Shown here piece by piece: positions 2,587 through 47,869 of a stretch of 64,000 bases of DNA. The notes beneath the pieces are model-generated. The model searched no databases, was not told the origin of the DNA, and was given only the letters and a program-made list of their open reading frames with translations. Location of the stretch: NCBI RefSeq assembly GCF_988242995.1, contig NZ_OZ547043.1, one strand, 5' to 3'. The position numbers and the translations under genes are program-made. Each line of letters begins with the position of its first letter. Within the stretch, counting starts at the first letter, position 1.

Positions 2587-4065
2587 ATGTCGAAAAAATA
2601 CATCATAGGGATTGATGGTGGAAGTCAGAGCACAAAAGTGGTGATGTACGATCTGGAAGGTAATGTGGTTTGCGAAGGCAAAGGCTTATTGCAGCCGATG
2701 CACACGCCAGATGCCGATACCGCAGAACATCCTGACGACGATTTATGGGCATCATTATGCTTTGCCGGTCACGATTTGATGAGTCAGTTTGCCGGAAATA
2801 AAGAAGATATTGTCGGTATTGGTCTGGGATCCATCCGTTGCTGCCGTGCGTTATTGAAAGCCGATGGCACGCCAGCTGCGCCGTTGATTAGCTGGCAGGA
2901 TGCACGCGTTACACGCCCTTACGAACATACGAATCCTGACGTGGCATATGTCACCTCTTTTTCAGGTTATCTGACGCATCGCTTAACCGGCGAGTTTAAA
3001 GACAATATCGCCAACTATTTTGGTCAGTGGCCGGTGGATTATAAGACCTGGGCATGGAGTGAAGATGCCGCAGTCATGGAGAAGTTTAATATCCCCCGTC
3101 ATATGCTGTTTGATGTGCAAATGCCGGGCACTGTTCTTGGGCATATCACTCCTCAAGCCGCGCTGGCGACACATTTCCCGGCTGGGCTGCCGGTTGTTTG
3201 TACCACCAGTGATAAACCGGTTGAAGCACTGGGAGCTGGGTTACTGGATGATGAAACGGCGGTAATTTCTCTTGGCACTTACATCGCGCTGATGATGAAC
3301 GGCAAAGCACTGCCGAAAGATCCGCTGGCGTACTGGCCGATTATGTCTTCTATTCCGCAAACATTGCTGTATGAAGGTTACGGTATCCGCAAAGGCATGT
3401 GGACGGTGAGCTGGCTACGCGACATGCTAGGCGAGTCGTTAATTCAGGATGCCAAAGCACAGGATCTTTCACCGGAAGATTTACTCAACAAAAAAGCGTC
3501 TTGTGTGCCGCCAGGCTGTAATGGTCTGATGACGGTGCTGGACTGGCTGACCAATCCGTGGGAACCGTACAAACGCGGGATTATGATCGGCTTTGATTCC
3601 AGCATGGATTACGCATGGATATATCGTTCGATACTGGAAAGCGTGGCGCTGACGCTGAAGAACAATTTCGACAATATGTGTAATGAAATGAATCACTTTG
3701 CAAAGCATGTGATCATTACTGGCGGCGGTTCGAACAGCGATCTGTTTATGCAGATTTTTGCCGACGTGTTCAACCTTCCGGCACGCCGTAACGCCATTAA
3801 TGGTTGTGCAAGCCTGGGGGCAGCGATTAATACGGCGGTAGGTCTGGGGCTATACCCGGATTACGCAACGGCTGTCGACAAAATGGTTCGCGTGAAAGAT
3901 ATCTTTATGCCTGTTGAGAACAATGCCAAACGCTACGACGCGATGAATAAAGGCATTTTCAAGGAGTTAACCAAACATACTGATGTAATCCTGAAAAAAT
4001 CGTATGAAGTGATGCATGGGGAATTGGGGAATGCGGATTCGATCCAGAGCTGGTCGAATGCGTAA
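2587..4065 (+). CDS. ygcE: FGGY-family carbohydrate kinase
   Basis: 492-aa ORF; N-terminal IGIDGGSQSTK sugar-kinase fold motif; RBS aggaga 7 nt upstream. Confidence 0.85.
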   Translation: MSKKYIIGIDGGSQSTKVVMYDLEGNVVCEGKGLLQPMHTPDADTAEHPDDDLWASLCFAGHDLMSQFAGNKEDIVGIGLGSIRCCRALLKADGTPAAPLISWQDARVTRPYEHTNPDVAYVTSFSGYLTHRLTGEFKDNIANYFGQWPVDYKTWAWSEDAAVMEKFNIPRHMLFDVQMPGTVLGHITPQAALATHFPAGLPVVCTTSDKPVEALGAGLLDDETAVISLGTYIALMMNGKALPKDPLAYWPIMSSIPQTLLYEGYGIRKGMWTVSWLRDMLGESLIQDAKAQDLSPEDLLNKKASCVPPGCNGLMTVLDWLTNPWEPYKRGIMIGFDSSMDYAWIYRSILESVALTLKNNFDNMCNEMNHFAKHVIITGGGSNSDLFMQIFADVFNLPARRNAINGCASLGAAINTAVGLGLYPDYATAVDKMVRVKDIFMPVENNAKRYDAMNKGIFKELTKHTDVILKKSYEVMHGELGNADSIQSWSNA

Positions 4066-4702: not shown

Positions 4703-5219
4703 TGGTTTATTCCCGCTGGTGCGGGGAACTCATCAGTGATATCCAACATTGCGGAGCTAAACGCGGTTTATCCCCGCTGGCGCGGGGAACTCAATTAGCC
4801 CGCCTCGCGCGGGTTTTTTTGTGCCGGTTTATCCCCGCTGGCGCGGGGAACTCTTTACTTATCTGCAAATATTTTTTGTCAGCTGCGGTTTATCCCCGCT
4901 GGCGCGGGGAACTCACGAACGCGGCACACCAGGGCGTCTCATCGTCCGGTTTATCCCCGCTGGCGCGGGGAACTCGAACACGACAGGAGTGATAAATGTA
5001 CGCACATCGGTTTATCCCCGCTGGCGCGGGGAACTCGGCTGATAGTGCTTCTGATTATTCGGCGCAAGCGGTTTATCCCCGCTGGCGCGGGGAACTCTAG
5101 GACCCAATATAAAACCGACTGGTTATTTTCGGTTTATCCCCGCTGGCGCGGGGAACTCTTTCAGTCTGGAACACAACGGCGTTAAATAACCGGTTTATCC
5201 CCGCTGGCGCGGGGAACTC
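4703..5219 (-). CRISPR. Type I-E CRISPR array, 9 repeats of 29 bp and 8 spacers of 32 bp; terminal repeat at 4703-4731 is degenerate
   Basis: Repeats start at 4703, 4764, 4825, 4886, 4947, 5008, 5069, 5130, 5191 with an exact 61-bp period; minus-strand repeat is GAGTTCCCCGCGCCAGCGGGGATAAACCG, the canonical E. coli I-E repeat. Confidence 0.95.
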
Positions 5220-5558: not shown

Positions 5559-6230
5559 TCAGGCAATATTTAAATATTTATGTGTTTGCATCGACAAACG
5601 CCAGTTGCGCGCAATGCACGTATCGATACATAAACGAGTAGCATCTTCCTTTTGGCTAATCGGCTGCAGCGCAATGACTCGCGGTTTATCATCGGTCAGT
5701 GTTGCCAGTAGTTCATCCAGTGCTTCAATATCACGCACGCGTCCCACTGGATGCTTGATTTCGTTGGCTCGCTCCAGTGCCTGTGACAACACTTCATAGC
5801 CGCCGCGCATGTTCAGCTTTGGCGATACGGTAACCCAGGTATTCGGTGTGCAGCGTACTTCATGAGTACCACTGGTTTCGATCTGGCAGCTAAAACCGTT
5901 CTTTTCGAGCAGGTCAGTCAGTGGCAGCAAATCATGAATGCAAGGCTCACCACCCGTAATCACCACATGCCGCGCGGTGTATCCCTGGCGACCAATGACA
6001 GCCAGCAAGTCTTCACTGCTCGCCGCCCCCCACTTATCACTCTCTTTGGTCTTCGCCAGAATGCTGAAAAGGGAGACTTCCCGATCCTCAAGCTTTTCCC
6101 AGGTGTGTTTGGTGTCGCACCAGGCACAGCCAACCGGGCATCCCTGTAAACGAATAAAAATGGCGGGGACGCCGGTAAAGTAACCCTCACCTTGCAGGGT
6201 CTGGAACATCTCGTTAATCGGGTACTGCAT
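5559..6230 (-). CDS. queE: 7-carboxy-7-deazaguanine synthase (radical SAM, queuosine biosynthesis)
   Basis: 223-aa ORF with CxxxCxxC-type cluster motif region (LQGCPVGCAWCDTKH). Confidence 0.9.
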   Translation of the reverse strand: MQYPINEMFQTLQGEGYFTGVPAIFIRLQGCPVGCAWCDTKHTWEKLEDREVSLFSILAKTKESDKWGAASSEDLLAVIGRQGYTARHVVITGGEPCIHDLLPLTDLLEKNGFSCQIETSGTHEVRCTPNTWVTVSPKLNMRGGYEVLSQALERANEIKHPVGRVRDIEALDELLATLTDDKPRVIALQPISQKEDATRLCIDTCIARNWRLSMQTHKYLNIA

Positions 6231-10706: not shown

Positions 10707-11498
10707 TTAGAGATCAATTTCCTGCCGTTTTACCTGTTGCCAGACTTCTTCCATTGTTTCGAGGTCAACACCTGTCATTTCCAGTCCACGCGCGGCAACA
10801 ATACGCTCCACTTCGCGAAAACGACGCTCGAATTTTTCATTGGCTTTTTGCAATGCGATTTCCGCTTTTGTCCCTAAATGACGAGCCAGATTGACCGTGG
10901 CAAACAGCAGGTCGCCCATTTCCTCCTCCAGTTTAGCCTGGTCGATAACAGCCTGCCGTGCCTCGTACATCACCTCGTCGATCTCTTCGTAGACTTTATC
11001 GACTACCGGACCAAGCGTCGTCCAGTCAAAACCAACGTTGGCGCAACGTTTCTGGATTTTTTGTGCACGCATTAATGCCGGTAAACTACGAGGAATATCG
11101 TCCAGCGCCGAATGCTGCGCTTTCTGCGCGCGCTCTTCGGTTTTGATTTGCTCCCAACGGGCAAGCACTTCACTACTGTTTTCGGCAGAACTGTCAGCAA
11201 AAACATGCGGATGGCGACGTTCTAATTTATCGCTGATCGCGGCGCAAATATCATTAAAGTCAAAGCGCCCTTCTTCCTGGGCCATTTGTGCGTAAAACAC
11301 CACCTGGAACAGCAGATCGCCCAGTTCACCGCGCAGATCGTCAAAATCTTCACGGGCGATGGCGTCCAGCACCTCGTAGGTTTCTTCAAGGGTGTAAGGC
11401 GCAATGGTGGCAAATGTCTGCTCTTTATCCCACGGGCAGCCGTTTTCCGGGTCGCGCAGGCGCTGCATGATGGTGAGCAAACGGTCGATTTGATTCAT
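10707..11498 (-). CDS. mazG: Nucleoside triphosphate pyrophosphohydrolase
   Basis: 263-aa ORF with tandem MazG-type domains (EEXXE motifs). Confidence 0.9.
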   Translation of the reverse strand: MNQIDRLLTIMQRLRDPENGCPWDKEQTFATIAPYTLEETYEVLDAIAREDFDDLRGELGDLLFQVVFYAQMAQEEGRFDFNDICAAISDKLERRHPHVFADSSAENSSEVLARWEQIKTEERAQKAQHSALDDIPRSLPALMRAQKIQKRCANVGFDWTTLGPVVDKVYEEIDEVMYEARQAVIDQAKLEEEMGDLLFATVNLARHLGTKAEIALQKANEKFERRFREVERIVAARGLEMTGVDLETMEEVWQQVKRQEIDL

Positions 11499-11556
11499 TG
11501 AATTGTCCTGAAAATTGCGGGTCTGTCAGGTGTAATACCTTCGAGTAAAAGATATC

Positions 11557-11584
11557 GCTGGATACGGCTGACGCCATATCCAGC
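11557..11584 (-). terminator. Hairpin directly after relA stop (gctggata-N12-tatccagc); possible relA terminator or attenuator
   Basis: 8-bp perfect inverted repeat read from sequence; followed on minus strand by a weak T-tract (gatatctttt). Confidence 0.3.
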
Positions 11585-11593
11585 TATGTAAGA

Positions 11594-13828
11594 CTAACTC
11601 CCGTGCAACCGACGCGCGTCGATAACATCCGGCACCTGGTTGAGTTTACCCAGCACGCGGCCCAGCACTTGCAGGTTGTAAATCTCAATGGTCATGTCGA
11701 TGGTCGCCAGTTGCTGTTTGGTGTCGCTACGGCTGGCAACGCCAAGCACGTTCACCTTCTCGTTGGCGAGAATGGTCGTGATATCACGTAACAACCCACT
11801 ACGATCATTAGCCACCACGCGGACCACCAGCGAATATCCGGCGGAGTAGCTCTCGCCCCATACCGCGTCAACAATGCGTTCTGGCGCATGGGAGCGCAGT
11901 TCCGCCAGTTGCTCACAGTCTGCACGATGCACTGAAATACCGCGTCCCTGGGTAATGAAGCCGACAATCTCATCTCCAGGAATCGGCTGGCAGCAGCGCG
12001 CGATGTGGTGCATCAGGTTACCGACACCTTCAACCACCACACGACCGTTATCTTTACTGCGGTTTTGCGGCGTGTAGCTTTTTTGCTGAAGTTGCTTCAG
12101 CGCGGCGGCGTCCTGCTCTTCGGCACTCGGCTTATTAAATTGCGATTGCAGGAAGTTCACCATCTGATTGAGACGGATATCCCCGCCACCAATCGCCGCC
12201 AGCAACTCGTCGACATCATTGAAGTTGTAACGCGGCAGCAGATGTTTTTCTGCTTCTTTCAGGCTGATCCCCAGATGTTCCAGCTCGTCGTCAAGGATTT
12301 GCCGCCCAGCCAGAATGTTTTTGTCACGGTCCTGTTTACGGAACCAGGCGTGAATTTTCGAACGCCCACGGCTGGTTGTGACGTAACCGAGGTTTGGGTT
12401 TAACCAGTCACGGCTGGGGTTCGGCTGTTTCTGGGTGATAATTTCAATCTGGTCGCCCATCTGCAGCTGGTAGGTGAACGGCACAATGCGCCCGCCAATT
12501 TTTGCCCCGATGCAGCGGTGTCCGACATCACTGTGGATGTGGTAAGCGAAGTCCAGCGGTGTTGATCCCGCAGGCAAATCAACGACATCACCTTTCGGCG
12601 TAAAGACGTACACCCGGTCGTCAAAGACCTGGCTACGTACTTCGTCGAGCATTTCGCCGGAATCAGCCATCTCTTCCTGCCACGCAATCAGTTTACGCAG
12701 CCAGGCAATCCGGTCTTCATGTCCCGAACGTGCGCCGCCAGCTGCCGCGCCCTCTTTATATTTCCAGTGCGCAGCAACACCCAACTCTGCATCTTCATGC
12801 ATCTGTTTAGTGCGGATTTGGATCTCAACGGTTTTGCCACCTGGTCCCAGAACCACGGTATGAATAGACTGATAACCGTTTGGTTTCGGGTTAGCGACGT
12901 AATCGTCAAACTCATCCGGCAGGTGGCGATAGTGAGTGTGCACTATCCCCAGTGCGGCATAACAATCCTGTAAACGCTCGGCGACAATACGTACCGCACG
13001 CACATCAAACAGCTCATCGAAGGCGAGGTTCTTTTTCTGCATTTTGCGCCAGATGCTGTAGATGTGTTTCGGACGACCATACACTTCAGCTTTAACGCCT
13101 TCAGCTTTCATCTCAGCGCGCAGATGGCCGACAAACTCTTCGATATAGTGTTCGCGGTCGAGACGGCGTTCATGCAGCAGTTTTGCGATGCGTTTGTATT
13201 CGGTCGGGTGGAGATAACGGAAGCAGTAATCTTCCAGCTCCCATTTCAGTTGTCCAATCCCAAGACGGTTCGCCAACGGCGCGTAGATATTGGTGCACTC
13301 TTTTGCCGCCAGTACGCGTTCATCTTCCGGCGCGTCTTTTACTTCGCGCAGATGAGCAATACGCTCTGCCAGTTTGATGACCACGCAGCGAAAATCATCG
13401 ACCATCGCCAATAACATCCGGCGAACGTTATCGACCTGTTCGGAGGAAACAGAATCGGTATGCGTCGCTTTCAGCTGGCGGATCGCCGCCATATCACGCA
13501 CGCCGTGAATAAGGTTAACGACCGACTTACCGACGCTCTCACGCAGCACATCTTCGCTGACTACGTTGGCATCCGCCAGAGGGAACAGCAGCGCCGCCCG
13601 CAGCGTGTCAATGTCCATACTTAATGTCGAGAGGATCTCCACCATCTCAACACCACGCCACAATAACAGACTGGCATCCGGATGCCCCTGCGTCTGTTGC
13701 AGACAATACGCCCAGGTTTCGGCTAAGCACTCACACGACTTCTGGCTGGTAATACCCAGACTTGCGATCCATTTTTCCGGATCAAATTCACCAGCCTTAT
13801 TGATATGTGCACTTCTTACCGCAACCAT
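11594..13828 (-). CDS. relA: GTP pyrophosphokinase, (p)ppGpp synthetase I
   Basis: 744-aa ORF with RelA/SpoT synthetase domain, TGS and ACT regions. Confidence 0.95.
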   Translation of the reverse strand: MVAVRSAHINKAGEFDPEKWIASLGITSQKSCECLAETWAYCLQQTQGHPDASLLLWRGVEMVEILSTLSMDIDTLRAALLFPLADANVVSEDVLRESVGKSVVNLIHGVRDMAAIRQLKATHTDSVSSEQVDNVRRMLLAMVDDFRCVVIKLAERIAHLREVKDAPEDERVLAAKECTNIYAPLANRLGIGQLKWELEDYCFRYLHPTEYKRIAKLLHERRLDREHYIEEFVGHLRAEMKAEGVKAEVYGRPKHIYSIWRKMQKKNLAFDELFDVRAVRIVAERLQDCYAALGIVHTHYRHLPDEFDDYVANPKPNGYQSIHTVVLGPGGKTVEIQIRTKQMHEDAELGVAAHWKYKEGAAAGGARSGHEDRIAWLRKLIAWQEEMADSGEMLDEVRSQVFDDRVYVFTPKGDVVDLPAGSTPLDFAYHIHSDVGHRCIGAKIGGRIVPFTYQLQMGDQIEIITQKQPNPSRDWLNPNLGYVTTSRGRSKIHAWFRKQDRDKNILAGRQILDDELEHLGISLKEAEKHLLPRYNFNDVDELLAAIGGGDIRLNQMVNFLQSQFNKPSAEEQDAAALKQLQQKSYTPQNRSKDNGRVVVEGVGNLMHHIARCCQPIPGDEIVGFITQGRGISVHRADCEQLAELRSHAPERIVDAVWGESYSAGYSLVVRVVANDRSGLLRDITTILANEKVNVLGVASRSDTKQQLATIDMTIEIYNLQVLGRVLGKLNQVPDVIDARRLHGS

Positions 13829-15233: not shown

Positions 15234-17990
15234 ATGACCAACTACAGCCTGCGCGCACGCATGATGATTCTGATCCTGGCACCGACCGTCCTTATTGGTT
15301 TATTGCTGAGTATCTTTTTCGTTGTGCATCGCTATAACGATTTGCAGCGTCAACTGGAAGATGCCGGAGCCAGCATTATTGAGCCGCTTGCAGTTTCTAC
15401 TGAATATGGCATGAGCCTGCAAAATCGCGAATCTATCGGTCAGTTAATAAGCGTACTGCATCGTCGCCATTCCGATATTGTTCGCGCGATTTCGGTTTAT
15501 GATGAAAATAACCGACTCTTTGTCACCTCCAATTTTCATCTTGATCCCTCATCAATGCAGCTCGGCAGCAACGTGCCGTTTCCTCGCCAGCTCACTGTCA
15601 CTCGTGACGGCGATATTATGATCCTCCGCACACCGATTATTTCTGAGAGTTACTCCCCCGACGAATCGCCCAGTAGCGATGCCAAAAATAGTCAAAATAT
15701 GTTGGGATATATTGCGCTTGAGCTGGATCTTAAATCGGTTCGCTTGCAGCAATATAAAGAGATCTTTATTTCCAGCGTGATGATGCTGTTTTGTATCGGT
15801 ATTGCGCTTATTTTTGGCTGGCGCTTAATGCGCGATGTAACCGGTCCGATTCGCAATATGGTGAATACCGTCGACCGCATCCGTCGCGGGCAACTCGACA
15901 GCCGGGTGGAAGGATTTATGCTCGGCGAGCTGGATATGCTGAAAAACGGTATCAACTCGATGGCAATGTCGCTGGCTGCTTATCACGAAGAGATGCAGCA
16001 CAATATCGACCAGGCGACGTCCGATCTGCGTGAAACGCTGGAGCAGATGGAAATTCAGAACGTTGAGTTGGATCTGGCGAAAAAGCGTGCCCAGGAAGCG
16101 GCGCGTATTAAATCCGAGTTTCTGGCAAATATGTCACACGAGCTGCGTACACCACTGAATGGTGTTATTGGCTTTACTCGCCTGACGCTGAAAACAGAAT
16201 TAACACCAACGCAGCGCGATCACCTGAATACGATTGAACGTTCGGCAAATAATTTGCTGGCAATTATTAATGATGTTCTCGACTTCTCGAAACTGGAAGC
16301 AGGTAAGCTGATTCTGGAAAGTATTCCATTCCCACTACGCAGCACGCTGGATGAAGTCGTTACCCTGCTGGCACATTCTTCTCACGATAAAGGGCTGGAA
16401 CTGACGCTCAATATTAAGAGCGACGTGCCCGATAACGTAATTGGCGACCCACTGCGATTACAGCAAATCATCACTAACCTGGTAGGGAATGCAATTAAAT
16501 TCACCGAGAATGGCAACATTGATATTCTGGTAGAAAAACGTGCGCTGAGTAATACCAAAGTGCAGATTGAAGTGCAGATTCGGGATACCGGCATTGGTAT
16601 TCCTGAACGCGATCAATCGCGCTTATTCCAGGCCTTCCGACAGGCTGATGCCAGTATTTCCCGCCGTCATGGTGGCACCGGGCTGGGGCTGGTGATTACA
16701 CAAAAACTGGTTAATGAAATGGGCGGCGATATTTCGTTCCATAGCCAGCCGAATCGCGGTTCAACTTTCTGGTTCCACATTAATCTCGATCTGAACCCGA
16801 ACATTATTATCGAAGGGCCATCCACCCAGTGCCTAGCCGGCAAGCGCCTGGCCTATGTCGAACCAAACTCCGCAGCAGCGCAATGCACGCTGGATATTTT
16901 AAGTGAAACGCCGCTGGAAGTGGTTTATAGCCCAACGTTCTCCGCGCTGCCTCCCGCGCATTACGACATGATGTTGTTAGGCATCGCGGTGACCTTCCGC
17001 GAGCCGCTAACAATGCAACATGAGCGATTAGCGAAAGCGGTATCGATGACCGATTTTCTGATGCTGGCACTTCCTTGCCATGCACAAGTCAATGCTGAAA
17101 AACTTAAGCAAGATGGTATCGGCGCGTGTCTGCTGAAACCATTAACACCTACGCGCCTGTTACCTGCCCTGACGGAATTTTGTCATCACAAACAAAACAC
17201 GCTTTTGCCTGTAACCGATGAAAGTAAGCTGGCAATGACAGTCATGGCGGTTGATGACAACCCCGCTAACCTGAAACTTATCGGCGCATTGCTGGAAGAT
17301 ATGGTGCAACATGTGGAACTTTGCGATAGCGGGCATCAGGCGGTTGAACGGGCGAAACAAATGCCGTTCGATTTGATCTTAATGGATATTCAAATGCCGG
17401 ACATGGACGGCATTCGGGCCTGCGAGCTCATCCACCAGCTCCCCCATCAGCAACAAACGCCAGTTATCGCGGTAACGGCGCATGCAATGGCCGGGCAAAA
17501 AGAGAAGCTGCTTGGCGCAGGGATGAGCGATTATCTGGCGAAACCGATTGAAGAAGAGCGATTGCATAATTTGTTGTTGCGCTACAAGCCTGGCAGCGGT
17601 ATTTCCTCTCGCGTCGTGACGCCCGAAGTCAACGAAATTGTGGTGAACCCGAATGCGACCCTCGACTGGCAACTGGCACTACGCCAGGCAGCAGGAAAAA
17701 CCGATTTAGCGCGCGATATGCTGCAAATGTTACTCGATTTCCTGCCTGAAGTTCGCAACAAAGTTGAGGAACAGCTGGTTGGAGAAAACCCGGAAGGCCT
17801 GGTTGATTTGATTCATAAACTGCATGGCAGTTGCGGCTATAGCGGTGTGCCGCGTATGAAGAATCTCTGCCAACTGATCGAACAACAGCTACGTAGCGGT
17901 ACTAAAGAAGAAGATTTGGAGCCGGAGCTGCTGGAACTGTTAGACGAGATGGATAATGTAGCGCGCGAAGCCAGCAAAATTCTCGGGTAA
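15234..17990 (+). CDS. barA: Hybrid sensor histidine kinase of the BarA/UvrY two-component system
   Basis: 918-aa ORF with HAMP, HisKA (H-box SHELRTPLN), HATPase, receiver and HPt domains. Confidence 0.95.
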
Positions 17991-18121
17991 CGGACGTCTT
18001 GTCGAGTCAAAATAGGTTCCGTCCAATGCCAATGCTGGGAGCAGCACAGACAGTCCCCTCGCCCCTCCGGGGAGAGGGCGAGGGGGAAAACCGGCCCCGT
18101 AAACCACTTCGTCAGTAATCT

Positions 18122-23137: not shown

Positions 23138-23920
23138 TTAGGAACTTATCTCTCCATCCTGACCCGATGGCGCACTGAACTCAACCCTTTCATTTTCAGG
23201 AAGCAGACCCCGCCAGCCAAATTGTGATAACGCCTGCATCCAGGTGTCGTCCAGGCCCGCGTGAATAGTCAGCGGCTCGCCAGTAAAAGGATGCGTCAAT
23301 GACAACTGACTGGCATGCAGCATTAACCGCTGAAGGCCAAAATGTTCAGCACCGCTGCGATTCTGGCGTAAATCACCATGTTTGCTGTCGCCAATAATCG
23401 GGTGGCGCAAATGGGCAAGATGGCGACGGAGCTGGTGCTTGCGTCCGGTTTTCGGCTCCAGTTCCACCAGGCCGTAGCGCGTGGTCGGGTAACGTCCGGT
23501 CGCTACCGGCATTTCTACGGTCGCCAGACCGCGATAATGCGTCACTGCTGGCTGTGGGCCTTTATCTTCGCGGGCAAATTTATCAGCGATTTTGTCCAGT
23601 TCTTCCACCAGTGGATAATCCAGAACTGCTTCTTCCATCAACCAGCCGCGCACAATCGCATGGTAACGTTTCTGGATTTGGTGCTGTTCAAACTGTTGTG
23701 CCAGCAGCCGTCCGGCCTCGCTGGATAATCCCATCAACAACACACCAGAAGTTGGTCGGTCCAGACGATGAGCAGTAAACACATGCTGGCCTATCTGGTC
23801 ACGCACGGTTTGCATGACCACTACTTTCTCGTCGCGATCCAGCCAGCTACGGTGAACCAGCCAGCCGGAGGGTTTATTTACCGCAACCAGCCATTCATCC
23901 TGATAGAGTATTTCCAGCAT
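23138..23920 (-). CDS. truC: tRNA pseudouridine(65) synthase
   Basis: 260-aa ORF with RluA-family catalytic motif ([12 protein letters not shown]). Confidence 0.9.
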
Positions 23921-24249
23921 TAGCTCGCATCATCCGCAAAAAGAGCATCCAGTTTTTCCAGCTCAGCCAGAATAAGCGCGCGTTGCGGGTGGTCCGTCGC
24001 CAGCGCCATTTCATAATAGGGAGCAACGGCAAAAGCGCCCGGTAACGGCTGGTTGTTTTCTAACAAATCGTGCATTCGCGGGATCAGCACCCACTGCAAC
24101 CACTCCAGTGGTTCCATGGTGTCCATAAAGAACGGTTGGGTACTATTAAATTGATGCGGCTGGGGTTCATCGTTTCGCCAGTGCTGATGTTCACGCAGTA
24201 ACGCTTCAAGCGCCTGCAACTGGAAACGAACGCGGTCATGAGTGGTCAT
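23920..24249 (-). CDS. yqcC: DUF446-family protein
   Basis: 109-aa ORF with start overlapping the truC stop. Confidence 0.8.
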   Translation of the reverse strand: MTTHDRVRFQLQALEALLREHQHWRNDEPQPHQFNSTQPFFMDTMEPLEWLQWVLIPRMHDLLENNQPLPGAFAVAPYYEMALATDHPQRALILAELEKLDALFADDAS

Positions 24250-24293
24250 AAAGCAACCTCAATAAGAAAAACTGCCGCGAAGGATAGCAGGAA

Positions 24294-24660
24294 TAAAAAA
24301 AGGGAGCACTGTATTCACAGTGCTCCCGGTTCGTTTCGCAGCATTCCAGCTACTTTTGTTGCTCCCTGCTCATCCTTGACAACTTTTCCTCTGGCCTTGC
24401 GGCCAATCGTTCATCCTGAACTATTGCTTCCTGCTCACACCACCCCGATGTGATACTTCATCCTGAAGTGTCCCTGGCCTTCCTGACCCACCGAATCATC
24501 CTGACCGGTTCTCATTCTCCATCCTGGAGGTGTCCTTTAACGCGTCCTGCGTCATCCTCTTCGCTTCATCCAGAAGCCTTTCCCTGAAACACCATCCTGG
24601 TGTGTCCTTCAGAAGTGTCATCATCCTGATGTTCACTTCGTTGTCTGACTCCCTGTCGAC
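24294..24660 (-). ncRNA. csrB: CsrB small RNA (CsrA-sequestering), with 3' intrinsic terminator
   Basis: Minus strand begins gtcgacagggagtc and carries many CAGGA(U/A)G repeats (seen as catcctg on the + strand); ends in hairpin gggagcactgtgaatacagtgctccc plus U-run (24294-24327). Confidence 0.9.
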
Positions 24661-24833
24661 GAAGATAGAATCGTCTTTTTCGCGAAGTCTTACAAGGCGC
24701 TTACAGACAATGCCTTAAGGAAAATTTCATATGAAAGTTAAGGATTAACAAGCAATATATTGATTTTAAATGAAAATAACGATTCTTATCTTTTTAAGTA
24801 TTCGCTTATTTCCTGGCGATCTCCTACAGAGTC

Positions 24834-24851
24834 TGTAAGAGATCTCTCACA
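24834..24851. promoter_or_regulatory. UvrY/SirA binding box upstream of csrB
   Basis: tgtaagagatctctcaca is the exact reverse complement of TGTGAGAGATCTCTTACA, about 175-190 bp upstream of the csrB 5' end. Confidence 0.75.
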
Positions 24852-24870
24852 ACCAGATGGGGTATTTGGA

Positions 24871-25416
24871 TTACAGAAGAGGCTTAAGTTGATTAAGGAA
24901 TTCCGCAAGATTTGAGGCTAAATGCGCCCGTTTACGTGTTCCCAGCGTCTCTTTACACACTTCACCGGAGAGATTACACACCGAGATCACCTCTAACTCT
25001 TCTTCCAGCGTCGCGATAAATAGCGTGGGCGGCAATTTTAGCCTTTTCTGAGTCACCAGATGACCAATCAGATTTTCCTGCACCCGACGGAAGTCGTCTT
25101 CACTCCAGGTTTGCAGCAATGTCAGTTTAATATCGCCAAACTGCGCGTGCATATCCCCGGCAAACTGAGTCGTATAAAAGGTATGAATTGTGGGTTGTAT
25201 CACAATATCAAAAGCGCGTTCAACCGCGTTTACATTTTGTTCCCCGGTAAACGGCTGGGGTTGCCAGTATACGGCGTCTTCGGTGGTTGAAATAATGCAC
25301 GGTGAAGGAACGCCGTACAGTTCCTCACTCAACGGCCAGCTTTTATGCTCTTCATGCCACGCATCGCAGTAGCGTGCAGTAAAATCTTTCAGGGCTTGTG
25401 CGGTCAAATCGTCCAC
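24871..25416 (-). CDS. syd: SecY-interacting protein Syd
   Basis: 181-aa ORF in the K-12 position between csrB and queF. Confidence 0.85.
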
Positions 25417-31949: not shown

Positions 31950-32035
31950 GTGCCGGATGCAAACGATTATCAACACATTGAATTTAATGAACTTATACGC
32001 CGGATAAGACGCAGCTAGCGTCGCATCCGGCATTA
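31950..32035. repeat. REP (repetitive extragenic palindromic) elements between xni and fucO
   Basis: gccggataagacgcagctagcgtcgcatccggca and a second gccggatgc unit. Confidence 0.7.
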
Positions 32036-41834: not shown

Positions 41835-42752
41835 TTATTGTTCATAACGAAAGCGGAATTTTTCTTGTTCAGCAGCGGCTTTCGCCAGGATCCATTGGCG
41901 AAAGGCGGCTATTTTACCCAGTTCTGCCTGGCTGTCATGACAAACCAGATAAAAAGCGTTTTTACTGACCAGTACATCATTAAACGGGCAAACAAGACGT
42001 CCGGCCTCAATTTCAGATTGCGCCATCACGTTATTTGCCAGCGCCACTCCCTGCCCGTGGATAGCCGCTTGCAGCACCATGGCGCTATGGCTAAAAATTG
42101 GCCCTTGCTGAACGTTGATATGATTTAACCCCAACTGTCGGGTATATGTCTGCCAGTCACGGCGCGACGCATCATGTAATAACGTATGTTTAGCCAGATC
42201 TTCCGGGGTCTTCAAGGGTTTTTCGCCAGTCAGTAGTAACGGCGAACACACCGGCAATAAATACTCGGCGTACAGTTTTTCCACCCGTAGCCCCGGCCAG
42301 TTGCCCCGACCATAAAATATCGCCACATCAACATCATCCGCCAGCTTATCTTCCTGACGATCAACCGCCTGGATTCGAACGTCAATTCCCGGATAAGCTG
42401 AATTAAAGCTGGAAAGTCGCGGAACCAACCAATGAATGGCGAAACTGGGGAGTAAACTGACCGTCAACGCCCCCTTGGCGCTACGGGCCTGGAGTTTACG
42501 CGTCGCTTCGGTTAATTGCGAAAATATCTCTTTGATATCGAGGAAATAGCTTTGACCTTCCTCGGTCAGCAGGAGTGAACGATTACGGCGGCGGAACAGT
42601 TTTAGCCCCAGAAAATCCTCAAGAGACTTGATTTGATGACTTACTGCGGCCTGGGTCACAAAAAGCTCTTCTGCTGCGCGAGTGAAACTTAAATGGCGTG
42701 CTGCGGCATCAAAAACTCGTAAGGCATTTAGCGGTGGTAATCGTTTAGACAT
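41835..42752 (-). CDS. gcvA: LysR-family regulator of the glycine cleavage system
   Basis: 305-aa LysR-type ORF, divergent from gcvB. Confidence 0.9.
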   Translation of the reverse strand: MSKRLPPLNALRVFDAAARHLSFTRAAEELFVTQAAVSHQIKSLEDFLGLKLFRRRNRSLLLTEEGQSYFLDIKEIFSQLTEATRKLQARSAKGALTVSLLPSFAIHWLVPRLSSFNSAYPGIDVRIQAVDRQEDKLADDVDVAIFYGRGNWPGLRVEKLYAEYLLPVCSPLLLTGEKPLKTPEDLAKHTLLHDASRRDWQTYTRQLGLNHINVQQGPIFSHSAMVLQAAIHGQGVALANNVMAQSEIEAGRLVCPFNDVLVSKNAFYLVCHDSQAELGKIAAFRQWILAKAAAEQEKFRFRYEQ

Positions 42753-42880: not shown

Positions 42881-43086
42881 ACTTCCTGAGCCGGAACGAA
42901 AAGTTTTATCGGAATGCGTGTTCTGGTGAACTTTTGGCTTACGGTTGTGATGTTGTGTTGTTGTGTTTGCAATTGGTCTGCGATTCAGACCATGGTAGCA
43001 AAGCTACCTTTTTTCACTTCCTGTACATTTACCCTGTCTGTCCATAGTGATTAATGTAGCACCGCCTAATTGCGGTGCTTTTTTTT
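42881..43086 (+). ncRNA. gcvB: GcvB small RNA (Hfq-dependent)
   Basis: Begins acttcctgagccggaacgaaaag, contains the GU-rich gttgtgatgttgtgttgttgtgtttg region and ends in gcaccgcctaattgcggtgc plus U-run. Confidence 0.9.
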
Positions 43087-46039: not shown

Positions 46040-46250
46040 TTAAAAAGGGCGAGGTTATCCCTCACCCTAAACGCATAAATGCCTGATGCGCTACGCTTAT
46101 CAGGCCTACATAACTCCTGCAATATTTTGGATTTGCATGATTTGTAGGCCGGATAAGGCGTTCACGCCGCATCCGGCATGAACAACGCGCACTTAGTCAA
46201 TAATCAGGATGTGAGGTTACCCCTCACCCTGTCATATCCGTAAAAACGGC
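46040..46250. repeat. Composite REP cluster flanked by near-identical GGTGAGGG-type hairpin units
   Basis: REP units gcctgatgcgctacgcttatcaggcctaca and gtaggccggataaggcgttcacgccgcatccggca; flanking repeats gaggttatccctcaccct (46052-46069) and gaggttacccctcaccct (46215-46232). Confidence 0.7.
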
Positions 46251-47571: not shown

Positions 47572-47648
<77 letters not shown>

Positions 47649-47681
47649 ATTAAAATTTGATGAAGTAAAGCAGTACGGTGA

Positions 47682-47758
<77 letters not shown>

Positions 47759-47792
47759 ATCAAAATTTGATGAAGTAATAGCAGTACGGTGA

Positions 47793-47869
<77 letters not shown>

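What the first reader, a model, noticed from the sequence alone, without database searches (positions are those of the whole stretch)
24294..24851. csrB sRNA with intact UvrY box: the BarA-UvrY-CsrB circuit is in one window
The minus strand carries a roughly 367-nt RNA with at least nine CAGGA(U/A)G units and a strong 3' terminator, and the 18-bp palindrome matching the UvrY box lies about 180 bp upstream. The sensor kinase barA is 7 kb away in the same window. This is known biology, noted because the sRNA is missed by ORF-based annotation and the track reports only spurious small ORFs here.
Basis: partly seen in the sequence, partly recalled or inferred. Interest (0 to 1): 0.3.

Follow-up and report, generated by a model that had tools for sequence, protein, structure and literature searches.

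The report
E. coli csrB small RNA gene
This is the textbook E. coli csrB gene, a 369-nt non-coding RNA that soaks up the regulator protein CsrA, with its published UvrY activator site upstream; it is ordinary, known biology that automatic annotation simply leaves unlabelled.

Summary
The finding is real, correctly interpreted and already known. Rfam scores window 24292-24651 (-) as CsrB at 382.9 bits (gathering 71, E 2e-111, full model). The window is collinear with E. coli K-12. The stretch equivalent to the curated csrB gene (b4408, 369 nt, between syd and yqcC) is 24660->24292 (-) and differs from K-12 at 2 of 369 bases. It carries 22 GGA triplets, the densest cluster in the window, mostly unpaired or in hairpin loops, and ends in an 11-bp, -21 kcal/mol terminator plus U7. 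The footprinted UvrY site TGTGAGAGATCTCTTACA is present exactly at 24851-24834, centred at -183/-182 as published. The TGTAGGAGA half-site and an IHF consensus lie between it and the promoter. barA (15234-17990, +) is 100% identical in protein to K-12. Corrections: strict CAGGA(U/A)G units number 8, not at least 9 (a ninth is CAGGACG). The RNA is 369 nt, not 367. uvrY is not in the window, so only the sensor, the UvrY DNA target and the sRNA are present, not the whole circuit. csrB is present in 5425 of 5426 complete E. coli genomes and carried no annotated feature in any non-K-12 RefSeq record inspected.

The parts
24292..24660 (-). csrB, 369-nt CsrA-sequestering sRNA (5' end GUCGACAGGGAGUC..., 3' end ...CCCUUUUUUUAUU)
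   Evidence: Rfam RF00018 at 382.9 bits over 24651-24292. 367/369 identical to K-12 b4408, with the same length and the same neighbours. 22 GGA triplets. The 5' end is transferred from the K-12 annotation, not mapped here.
24292..24327 (-). intrinsic terminator: 11-bp stem GGGAGCACUGU/ACAGUGCUCCC (24327-24302), GAAU loop, U7 tail
   Evidence: Terminator scan. Fold of -21.3 kcal/mol, z = -7.5. Matches the terminal helix of the Rfam model.
24834..24851 (-). UvrY-P binding site, the 18-bp inverted repeat TGTGAGAGATCTCTTACA, -191 to -174 (centre -183/-182)
   Evidence: Exact match, 0.02 expected by chance. Position computed. Same sequence and same centre as the DNase I-footprinted site in PMC4682653.
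24820..24828 (-). additional partially conserved half-site TGTAGGAGA, 5 bp downstream of the inverted repeat (-168 to -160)
   Evidence: Described with the same sequence and spacing in PMC4682653.
24753..24765 (-). IHF consensus match AATCAATATATTG (WATCAANNNNTTR), -105 to -93, in the AT-rich spacer
   Evidence: Pattern match. It lies between the two UvrY crosslinking regions, where PMC4682653 places a putative IHF site. Whether it is the same site as in their figure is inferred. Two of the window's SNPs against K-12 (24759, 24756) fall on N positions of the consensus.
24636..24716 (-). promoter-proximal region (-56 to +25), where UvrY crosslinks in vivo but does not footprint in vitro; contains the core promoter
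   Evidence: Coordinates transferred from PMC4682653. This stretch is identical to K-12 apart from none of the listed SNPs. A simple sigma-70 consensus scan finds no strong promoter here, which fits dependence on an activator.
15234..17990 (+). barA, the tripartite sensor kinase that phosphorylates UvrY
   Evidence: NCBIfam NF008318 BarA equivalog at 1623.9 bits, cut-off 890. 918/918 aa identical to K-12 BarA, with His302, Asp718 and His861 present.
24871..25416 (-). syd (SecY-interacting protein), upstream neighbour; its stop codon lies 19 bp from the UvrY site
   Evidence: NF003439 at 285.8 bits. RefSeq annotation.
23920..24249 (-). yqcC (DUF446), downstream neighbour, starting 42 bp after the csrB 3' end
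   Evidence: Pfam PF04287 at 118.8 bits. RefSeq annotation.

Best explanation
The region is the csrB gene of Escherichia coli with its complete upstream control region. BarA, encoded 6-9 kb away in the window, senses short-chain carboxylates and phosphorylates UvrY, which is encoded elsewhere on the chromosome. UvrY-P binds the 18-bp inverted repeat centred at -183/-182. IHF bends the AT-rich spacer so that the distant activator can act on a weak sigma-70 promoter. Transcription from 24660 to the intrinsic terminator at about 24292 gives a 369-nt RNA that displays about 20 GGA motifs, mostly in hairpin loops or single-stranded linkers. [quoted passage not shown] This relieves CsrA-dependent control of glycogen synthesis, biofilm, motility and central carbon metabolism. 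CsrB is removed by CsrD-dependent RNase E cleavage. Shown here: sequence identity to the characterised gene, Rfam family membership, the motif array, the predicted presentation of the motifs, the terminator, the UvrY site, the IHF consensus, and an intact barA. Inferred from published work on K-12, not tested here: transcription, CsrA binding, UvrY and IHF dependence, and turnover.
For: Rfam CsrB at 382.9 bits against a gathering score of 71, E 2.2e-111, model 1-356 of 356, all helices matched. 367/369 identity and identical syd-csrB-yqcC synteny with K-12 b4408. The whole window is collinear with K-12 2,899,500-2,963,812 at 95-98% identity. 22 GGA triplets, the window maximum. In the minimum-free-energy fold, 17 of the 22 are fully unpaired and 9 sit in hairpin loops; mean P(unpaired) over GGA is 0.81 against 0.44 for the whole RNA. 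The fold has z = -4.3. Terminator of -21.3 kcal/mol plus U7. Exact UvrY inverted repeat at the published position, plus the TGTAGGAGA half-site and an IHF consensus. BarA is identical to K-12 and its phosphorelay residues are intact. The locus is conserved in 5425 of 5426 complete E. coli genomes, at >=99% identity in 5176.
Against: Nothing substantive. The simple sigma-70 scan finds no consensus-like promoter upstream of 24660. This is expected for an activator-dependent promoter, but it means the start site rests on the K-12 annotation and on the literature coordinates rather than on the sequence alone. Expression and CsrA binding were not, and cannot be, tested with these tools.
Confidence: 0.99

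Rival explanations
1. It is the paralogous sRNA CsrC, or another member of the CsrB/RsmB clan, rather than csrB proper.
For: CsrC belongs to the same Rfam clan (CL00106), carries the same GGA motifs, and also has a UvrY site upstream.
Against: cmscan keeps the best family of the clan for each place, and that is CsrB with a full-length match. The stretch is 367/369 identical to K-12 csrB and lies in csrB's position between syd and yqcC. The upstream repeat is the near-perfect csrB version TGTGAGAGATCTCTTACA, not the csrC version TGTGAGACATTGCCGATA.
Confidence: 0.003
2. The region encodes one or more small proteins (ORFs of 26-71 aa overlap it on both strands), and the GGA repeats are a by-product of coding.
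For: Mechanical ORFs exist at 24238-24453 (+, 71 aa), 24530-24718 (+, 62 aa), 24496-24636 (-, 46 aa) and 24450-24587 (+, 45 aa).
Against: None has a Pfam match even at E <= 1. None is annotated in the curated K-12 record or in PGAP records. The covariance-model match, which scores structure as well as sequence, accounts for the whole stretch.
Confidence: 0.005
3. The gene is present but functionally altered in this lineage. The two RNA SNPs and the four promoter-spacer SNPs against K-12 change CsrA capacity or UvrY/IHF-dependent expression.
For: SNPs against K-12 lie at RNA position 52 (C>A, turning CAGGAC into AAGGAC), at position 340 (G>A, in the terminator loop), and at -99, -96, -92 and -83 in or next to the IHF consensus.
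Against: The A at position 52 is the Rfam consensus base. Position 340 is in a loop and the terminator remains at -21.3 kcal/mol. The two SNPs inside the IHF match fall on N positions, so both alleles fit WATCAANNNNTTR. The exact RNA allele was 100% identical in 6 of 25 evenly sampled genomes, so it is a common natural allele. The UvrY site, the half-site and the -56 to +25 region are unchanged.
Confidence: 0.05

Closest known systems
E. coli K-12 MG1655 csrB (b4408; NC_000913.3 2,924,156-2,924,524, minus strand)
   Same: Same length (369 nt), same neighbours (syd upstream, yqcC downstream), 367/369 identical, and identical UvrY inverted repeat, half-site and core promoter region.
   Different: Two base substitutions in the RNA (position 52 C>A, position 340 G>A) and four in the AT-rich spacer at -99 to -83. 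None touches a defined functional element.
Salmonella enterica csrB with its SirA site
   Same: Same 18-bp inverted repeat TGTGAGAGATCTCTTACA, centred at -182/-181, the same downstream half-site and an IHF site between it and the promoter (PMC4682653).
   Different: It is an orthologue in another genus. It was not aligned here.
E. coli CsrC (Rfam clan CL00106)
   Same: A GGA-rich CsrA sponge activated by BarA-UvrY through a far-upstream site.
   Different: Its inverted repeat has weaker symmetry (TGTGAGACATTGCCGATA) and no IHF dependence. From background knowledge, not tested here, it is also shorter with fewer GGA sites and lies at a different locus. The window's RNA is not CsrC.
RsmB / RsmX / RsmY / RsmZ sRNAs of Pectobacterium and Pseudomonas (GacS-GacA controlled)
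   Same: Same logic: a two-component system activates a multi-GGA decoy RNA that titrates a CsrA/RsmA protein. RsmB shares the Rfam family (RF00018, 'CsrB/RsmB RNA family').
   Different: Different genera, sizes and upstream activating sequences. This comparison rests on background knowledge and was not tested here.

Membership tests
CsrB/RsmB RNA family (Rfam RF00018) | Covariance-model score at or above the curated gathering threshold over the full model | tested here: met
   382.9 bits against 71, E 2.2e-111, model 1-356 of 356, not truncated.
CsrB/RsmB RNA family (Rfam RF00018) | Many GGA motifs (about 18-22; CAGGA(U/A/C)G-type repeats) presented in hairpin loops or single-stranded linkers | tested here: met
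   22 GGA, 9 CAGGA and 8 CAGGA[AU]G. 17 of the 22 GGA are fully unpaired and 9 sit in hairpin loops of the minimum-free-energy fold; P(unpaired) 0.81 against 0.44 overall.
CsrB/RsmB RNA family (Rfam RF00018) | Rho-independent terminator at the 3' end | tested here: met
   11-bp stem plus U7, -21.3 kcal/mol.
CsrB/RsmB RNA family (Rfam RF00018) | High-affinity binding and sequestration of multiple CsrA dimers | not testable with these tools
   Established for the K-12 RNA, which differs at 2 of 369 positions. Inferred by identity.
E. coli csrB orthologue (b4408) | Position between syd and yqcC on the same strand, with near-identity to the curated gene | tested here: met
BarA-UvrY regulon (direct UvrY target) | 18-bp inverted repeat TGTGAGAGATCTCTTACA far upstream of the promoter (centre -183/-182) | tested here: met
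   Exact match at 24851-24834, centre -183/-182. Published site.
BarA-UvrY regulon (direct UvrY target) | BarA- and UvrY-dependent transcription, with IHF needed for optimal activation | not testable with these tools
   An IHF consensus is present at -105 to -93. The dependence is known from K-12.
   NF008318 at 1623.9 bits. 918/918 identical to K-12, with H302, D718 and H861 present.
   tblastn of K-12 UvrY against the window finds only the BarA receiver domain, at 28.6% identity and E 8e-7. In K-12, uvrY lies at 1,994,703-1,995,359.

The most novel reading that the evidence does not exclude
The lineage-specific haplotype of this window quantitatively retunes CsrB output or CsrA capacity relative to K-12, giving natural variation in Csr set-point between E. 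coli lineages. The haplotype consists of four substitutions clustered at -99 to -83 in and around the IHF-bent spacer, plus C52A, which changes one CAGGAC site to AAGGAC.
Probability: 0.07. Interest if true: 0.12.

Novelty: already known. Interest (0 to 1): 0.07.

Why it matters
It matters little as biology: csrB, its UvrY site and barA are among the best-characterised post-transcriptional control elements in E. coli. The practical points are modest. First, the scan correctly recognised a non-coding gene from raw sequence, so this is a useful positive control. Second, RefSeq/PGAP annotation shows no csrB feature in the window's twin genome or in any of 25 evenly sampled records, although the gene is present in 5425 of 5426 complete E. 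coli genomes. The curated K-12 record does annotate it. ORF-centred pipelines therefore see an 'empty' 620-bp intergenic region here. Third, barA and csrB are linked within 10 kb, but the response regulator is not, so the window does not contain the full circuit.

Tried and rejected
(1) A sigma-70 consensus scan of 24100-25100 found no promoter-like site, so I could not define the -10 and -35 hexamers from sequence. The start site is taken from the K-12 annotation and agrees with the published -183/-182 centre of the UvrY site. (2) I searched the window for uvrY by tblastn and found only the BarA receiver domain, so the 'whole circuit in one window' reading is rejected. (3) I scanned six small ORFs over and beside csrB against Pfam at E <= 1 and found nothing, so the coding reading is rejected. 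(4) I considered CsrC and rejected it on synteny, identity and the form of the upstream repeat. (5) I asked whether the SNPs against K-12 damage a functional element. None does: consensus base, terminator loop, N positions of the IHF motif.

Full report
1. Observation.

Reading the minus strand of 24100-25100 shows a GGA-rich stretch ending in a G+C-rich hairpin and a U-run, with TGTGAGAGATCTCTTACA further upstream.

Motif counts. The strict motif CAGGA[AT]G occurs 8 times on the minus strand between 24418 and 24628. Looser definitions give 11 GGA[AT]G and 22 GGA. Twenty-two GGA in 369 nt is the highest density anywhere in the window on either strand (minus-strand mean 4.95, sd 2.45).

Terminator. 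The stem spans 24327-24302, with 11 pairs of which 7 are G-C, followed by U7. It folds at -21.3 kcal/mol with z = -7.5.

Palindrome. TGTGAGAGATCTCTTACA is an exact match at 24851-24834, with 0.02 matches expected by chance at up to 3 mismatches.

ORFs. The region holds only mechanical ORFs of 26-71 aa, and none has a Pfam match at E <= 1.

2. Identity.

Rfam.

Organism and synteny. Megablast against 5,426 complete E. coli genomes shows that the window is E. coli. The 751-bp query is 100% identical to three genomes and lies between syd and yqcC. The curated K-12 record annotates csrB (b4408) as a 369-nt ncRNA in exactly that position and orientation.

Comparison with K-12. The window equivalent, 24660->24292, is 367/369 identical. 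The differences are C>A at RNA position 52 (24609) and G>A at position 340 (24321, in the terminator loop). The 621-bp intergenic region has only four more differences, at 24759, 24756, 24752 and 24743. The whole window is collinear with K-12 2,899,500-2,963,812 at 95-98% identity.

3. Control region.

Zere et al. 2015 (PMC4682653) mapped UvrY by ChIP-exo and DNase I footprinting. In E. coli csrB they found the 18-nt inverted repeat TGTGAGAGATCTCTTACA centred at -183/-182. A partially conserved TGTAGGAGA lies 5 bp downstream of it. A putative IHF site sits between this upstream region and a promoter-proximal crosslinking region (-56 to +25).

With +1 at 24660, the window gives these positions:
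- the inverted repeat at -191 to -174, centred at -183/-182;
- TGTAGGAGA at -168 to -160, 5 bp downstream of the repeat;
- a perfect WATCAANNNNTTR match (AATCAATATATTG) at -105 to -93.

Two of the spacer SNPs fall on N positions of that IHF consensus, so the K-12 allele (AATCAAAATGTTG) fits it equally well. A simple sigma-70 scan finds no consensus-like promoter. That fits an activator-dependent promoter, but it means the start site is taken from the annotation and the literature rather than derived from the sequence.

4. The RNA.

The 369-nt transcript folds at -119.9 kcal/mol (z = -4.3) into a series of short hairpins. In that fold, 17 of the 22 GGA triplets are fully unpaired and 9 sit in hairpin loops. 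In the ensemble, the mean unpaired probability over GGA is 0.81, against 0.44 for the whole molecule. This is the architecture expected for a multi-site CsrA decoy.

5. The rest of the circuit.

barA is the 918-aa ORF at 15234-17990 (+). It matches the BarA equivalog model at 1623.9 bits against a cut-off of 890. It is 918/918 identical to K-12 BarA, with His302, Asp718 and His861 in place (residues named). Its end lies 6.3 kb from the csrB 3' end.

uvrY is not in the window. tblastn with K-12 UvrY (taken) finds only the BarA receiver domain, at 28.6% identity. The K-12 annotation of the collinear stretch also lists no csrA, csrC or csrD. The title's 'circuit in one window' is therefore overstated: the sensor, the sRNA and the regulator's DNA target are present, but the regulator is not.

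6. Mechanism.

The steps shown here are the sequence features above. The mechanism itself is inferred from published work on K-12 (and the literature it cites). BarA senses carboxylates and phosphorylates UvrY. UvrY-P binds the far-upstream inverted repeat and, with IHF-mediated bending, activates csrB transcription. CsrB's multiple GGA sites sequester CsrA dimers away from lower-affinity mRNAs. CsrD targets CsrB to RNase E for turnover.

7. Rivals.
- CsrC: excluded by synteny, identity and the form of the upstream repeat.
- Small-protein coding: there is no supporting evidence.
- A lineage-specific functional change: unlikely, because no defined element is altered and the RNA allele is common. 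Six of 25 evenly sampled genomes are 100% identical to it.

8. Population context.

csrB is found in 5425 of 5426 complete E. coli genomes, at >=99% identity in 5176. Outside the curated K-12 record it carries no feature in RefSeq: 'none' under the match in all 25 sampled records, and nothing between syd and yqcC in the window's twin genome.

9. Verdict.

The biology is already known, so interest is low.

Noticed in passing
window 4703-5219 (+), between ygcE (2587-4065) and queE (5559-6230): A CRISPR array of 9 repeats at exactly 61-bp spacing: CGGTTTATCCCCGCTGGCGCGGGGAACTC, with 8 perfect copies and 1 degenerate terminal copy at 4703. From memory this is the E. coli type I-E repeat, here in reverse complement. 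The window has 155 bp (5035-5189) where K-12 has 33 bp, which is two extra repeat-spacer units. I did not look for cas genes in the window.
   Followed up: partly
window 11541-11593 (between mazG 10707-11498 and relA 11594-13828): The mazEF toxin-antitoxin module is absent. A 53-bp stretch containing a hairpin of -19.9 kcal/mol replaces 690 bp of K-12 that carry most of mazF and all of mazE.
   Followed up: partly
window 42881-43086 (+): GcvB sRNA, Rfam RF00022 at 199 bits with the full model, divergent from gcvA (41835-42752, -). This is a second well-known sRNA that ORF-based annotation would miss.
   Followed up: partly
window 46102-46144 (-), within 46090-46160: A match to Rfam ES036 (CssrF) at 46.5 bits against a gathering score of 37.6, between tcdA and mltA. 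It lies inside an inverted pair of sequences that look like REP elements (GCTTATCAGGCCTACA...TGTAGGCCGGATAAGGCG) and fold at -27.9 kcal/mol. The hit may reflect a REP hairpin rather than a dedicated sRNA. It is not annotated in K-12.
   Followed up: partly
window 47572-47866 (+): Three tandem, near-identical tRNA genes with anticodon CAU and an unpaired C1/A72. They correspond to the metZ-metW-metV initiator tRNA cluster of K-12.
   Followed up: partly
window 18008-18118 (between barA and gudD) and 31959-32008 (between xni/ygdG and fucO): Small indels relative to K-12. The first is 111 bp against 172 bp and contains a very G+C-rich hairpin (CCCCTCGCCCCTCCGGGGAGAGGGCGAGGGGG). The second is a 50-bp insertion next to REP-like cores (GCCGGATG, GCCGGATA).
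   Followed up: no
L006 (E. coli MARGA_3, NZ_CM170101.1) 1815-2992: In this human isolate an IS3-family transposase sits between syd and yqcC, and the csrB match is split, with only nt 92-369 contiguous. This is a natural insertional disruption of csrB. In addition, one of the 5426 genomes has no csrB match at all, and one csrB match lies on a record labelled as a plasmid.
   Followed up: partly
window-wide: CAGGAWG occurs 40 times outside csrB, against about 13 expected for the whole window from dinucleotide shuffles. This is probably an effect of codon and amino-acid usage in coding sequence and was not examined.
   Followed up: no
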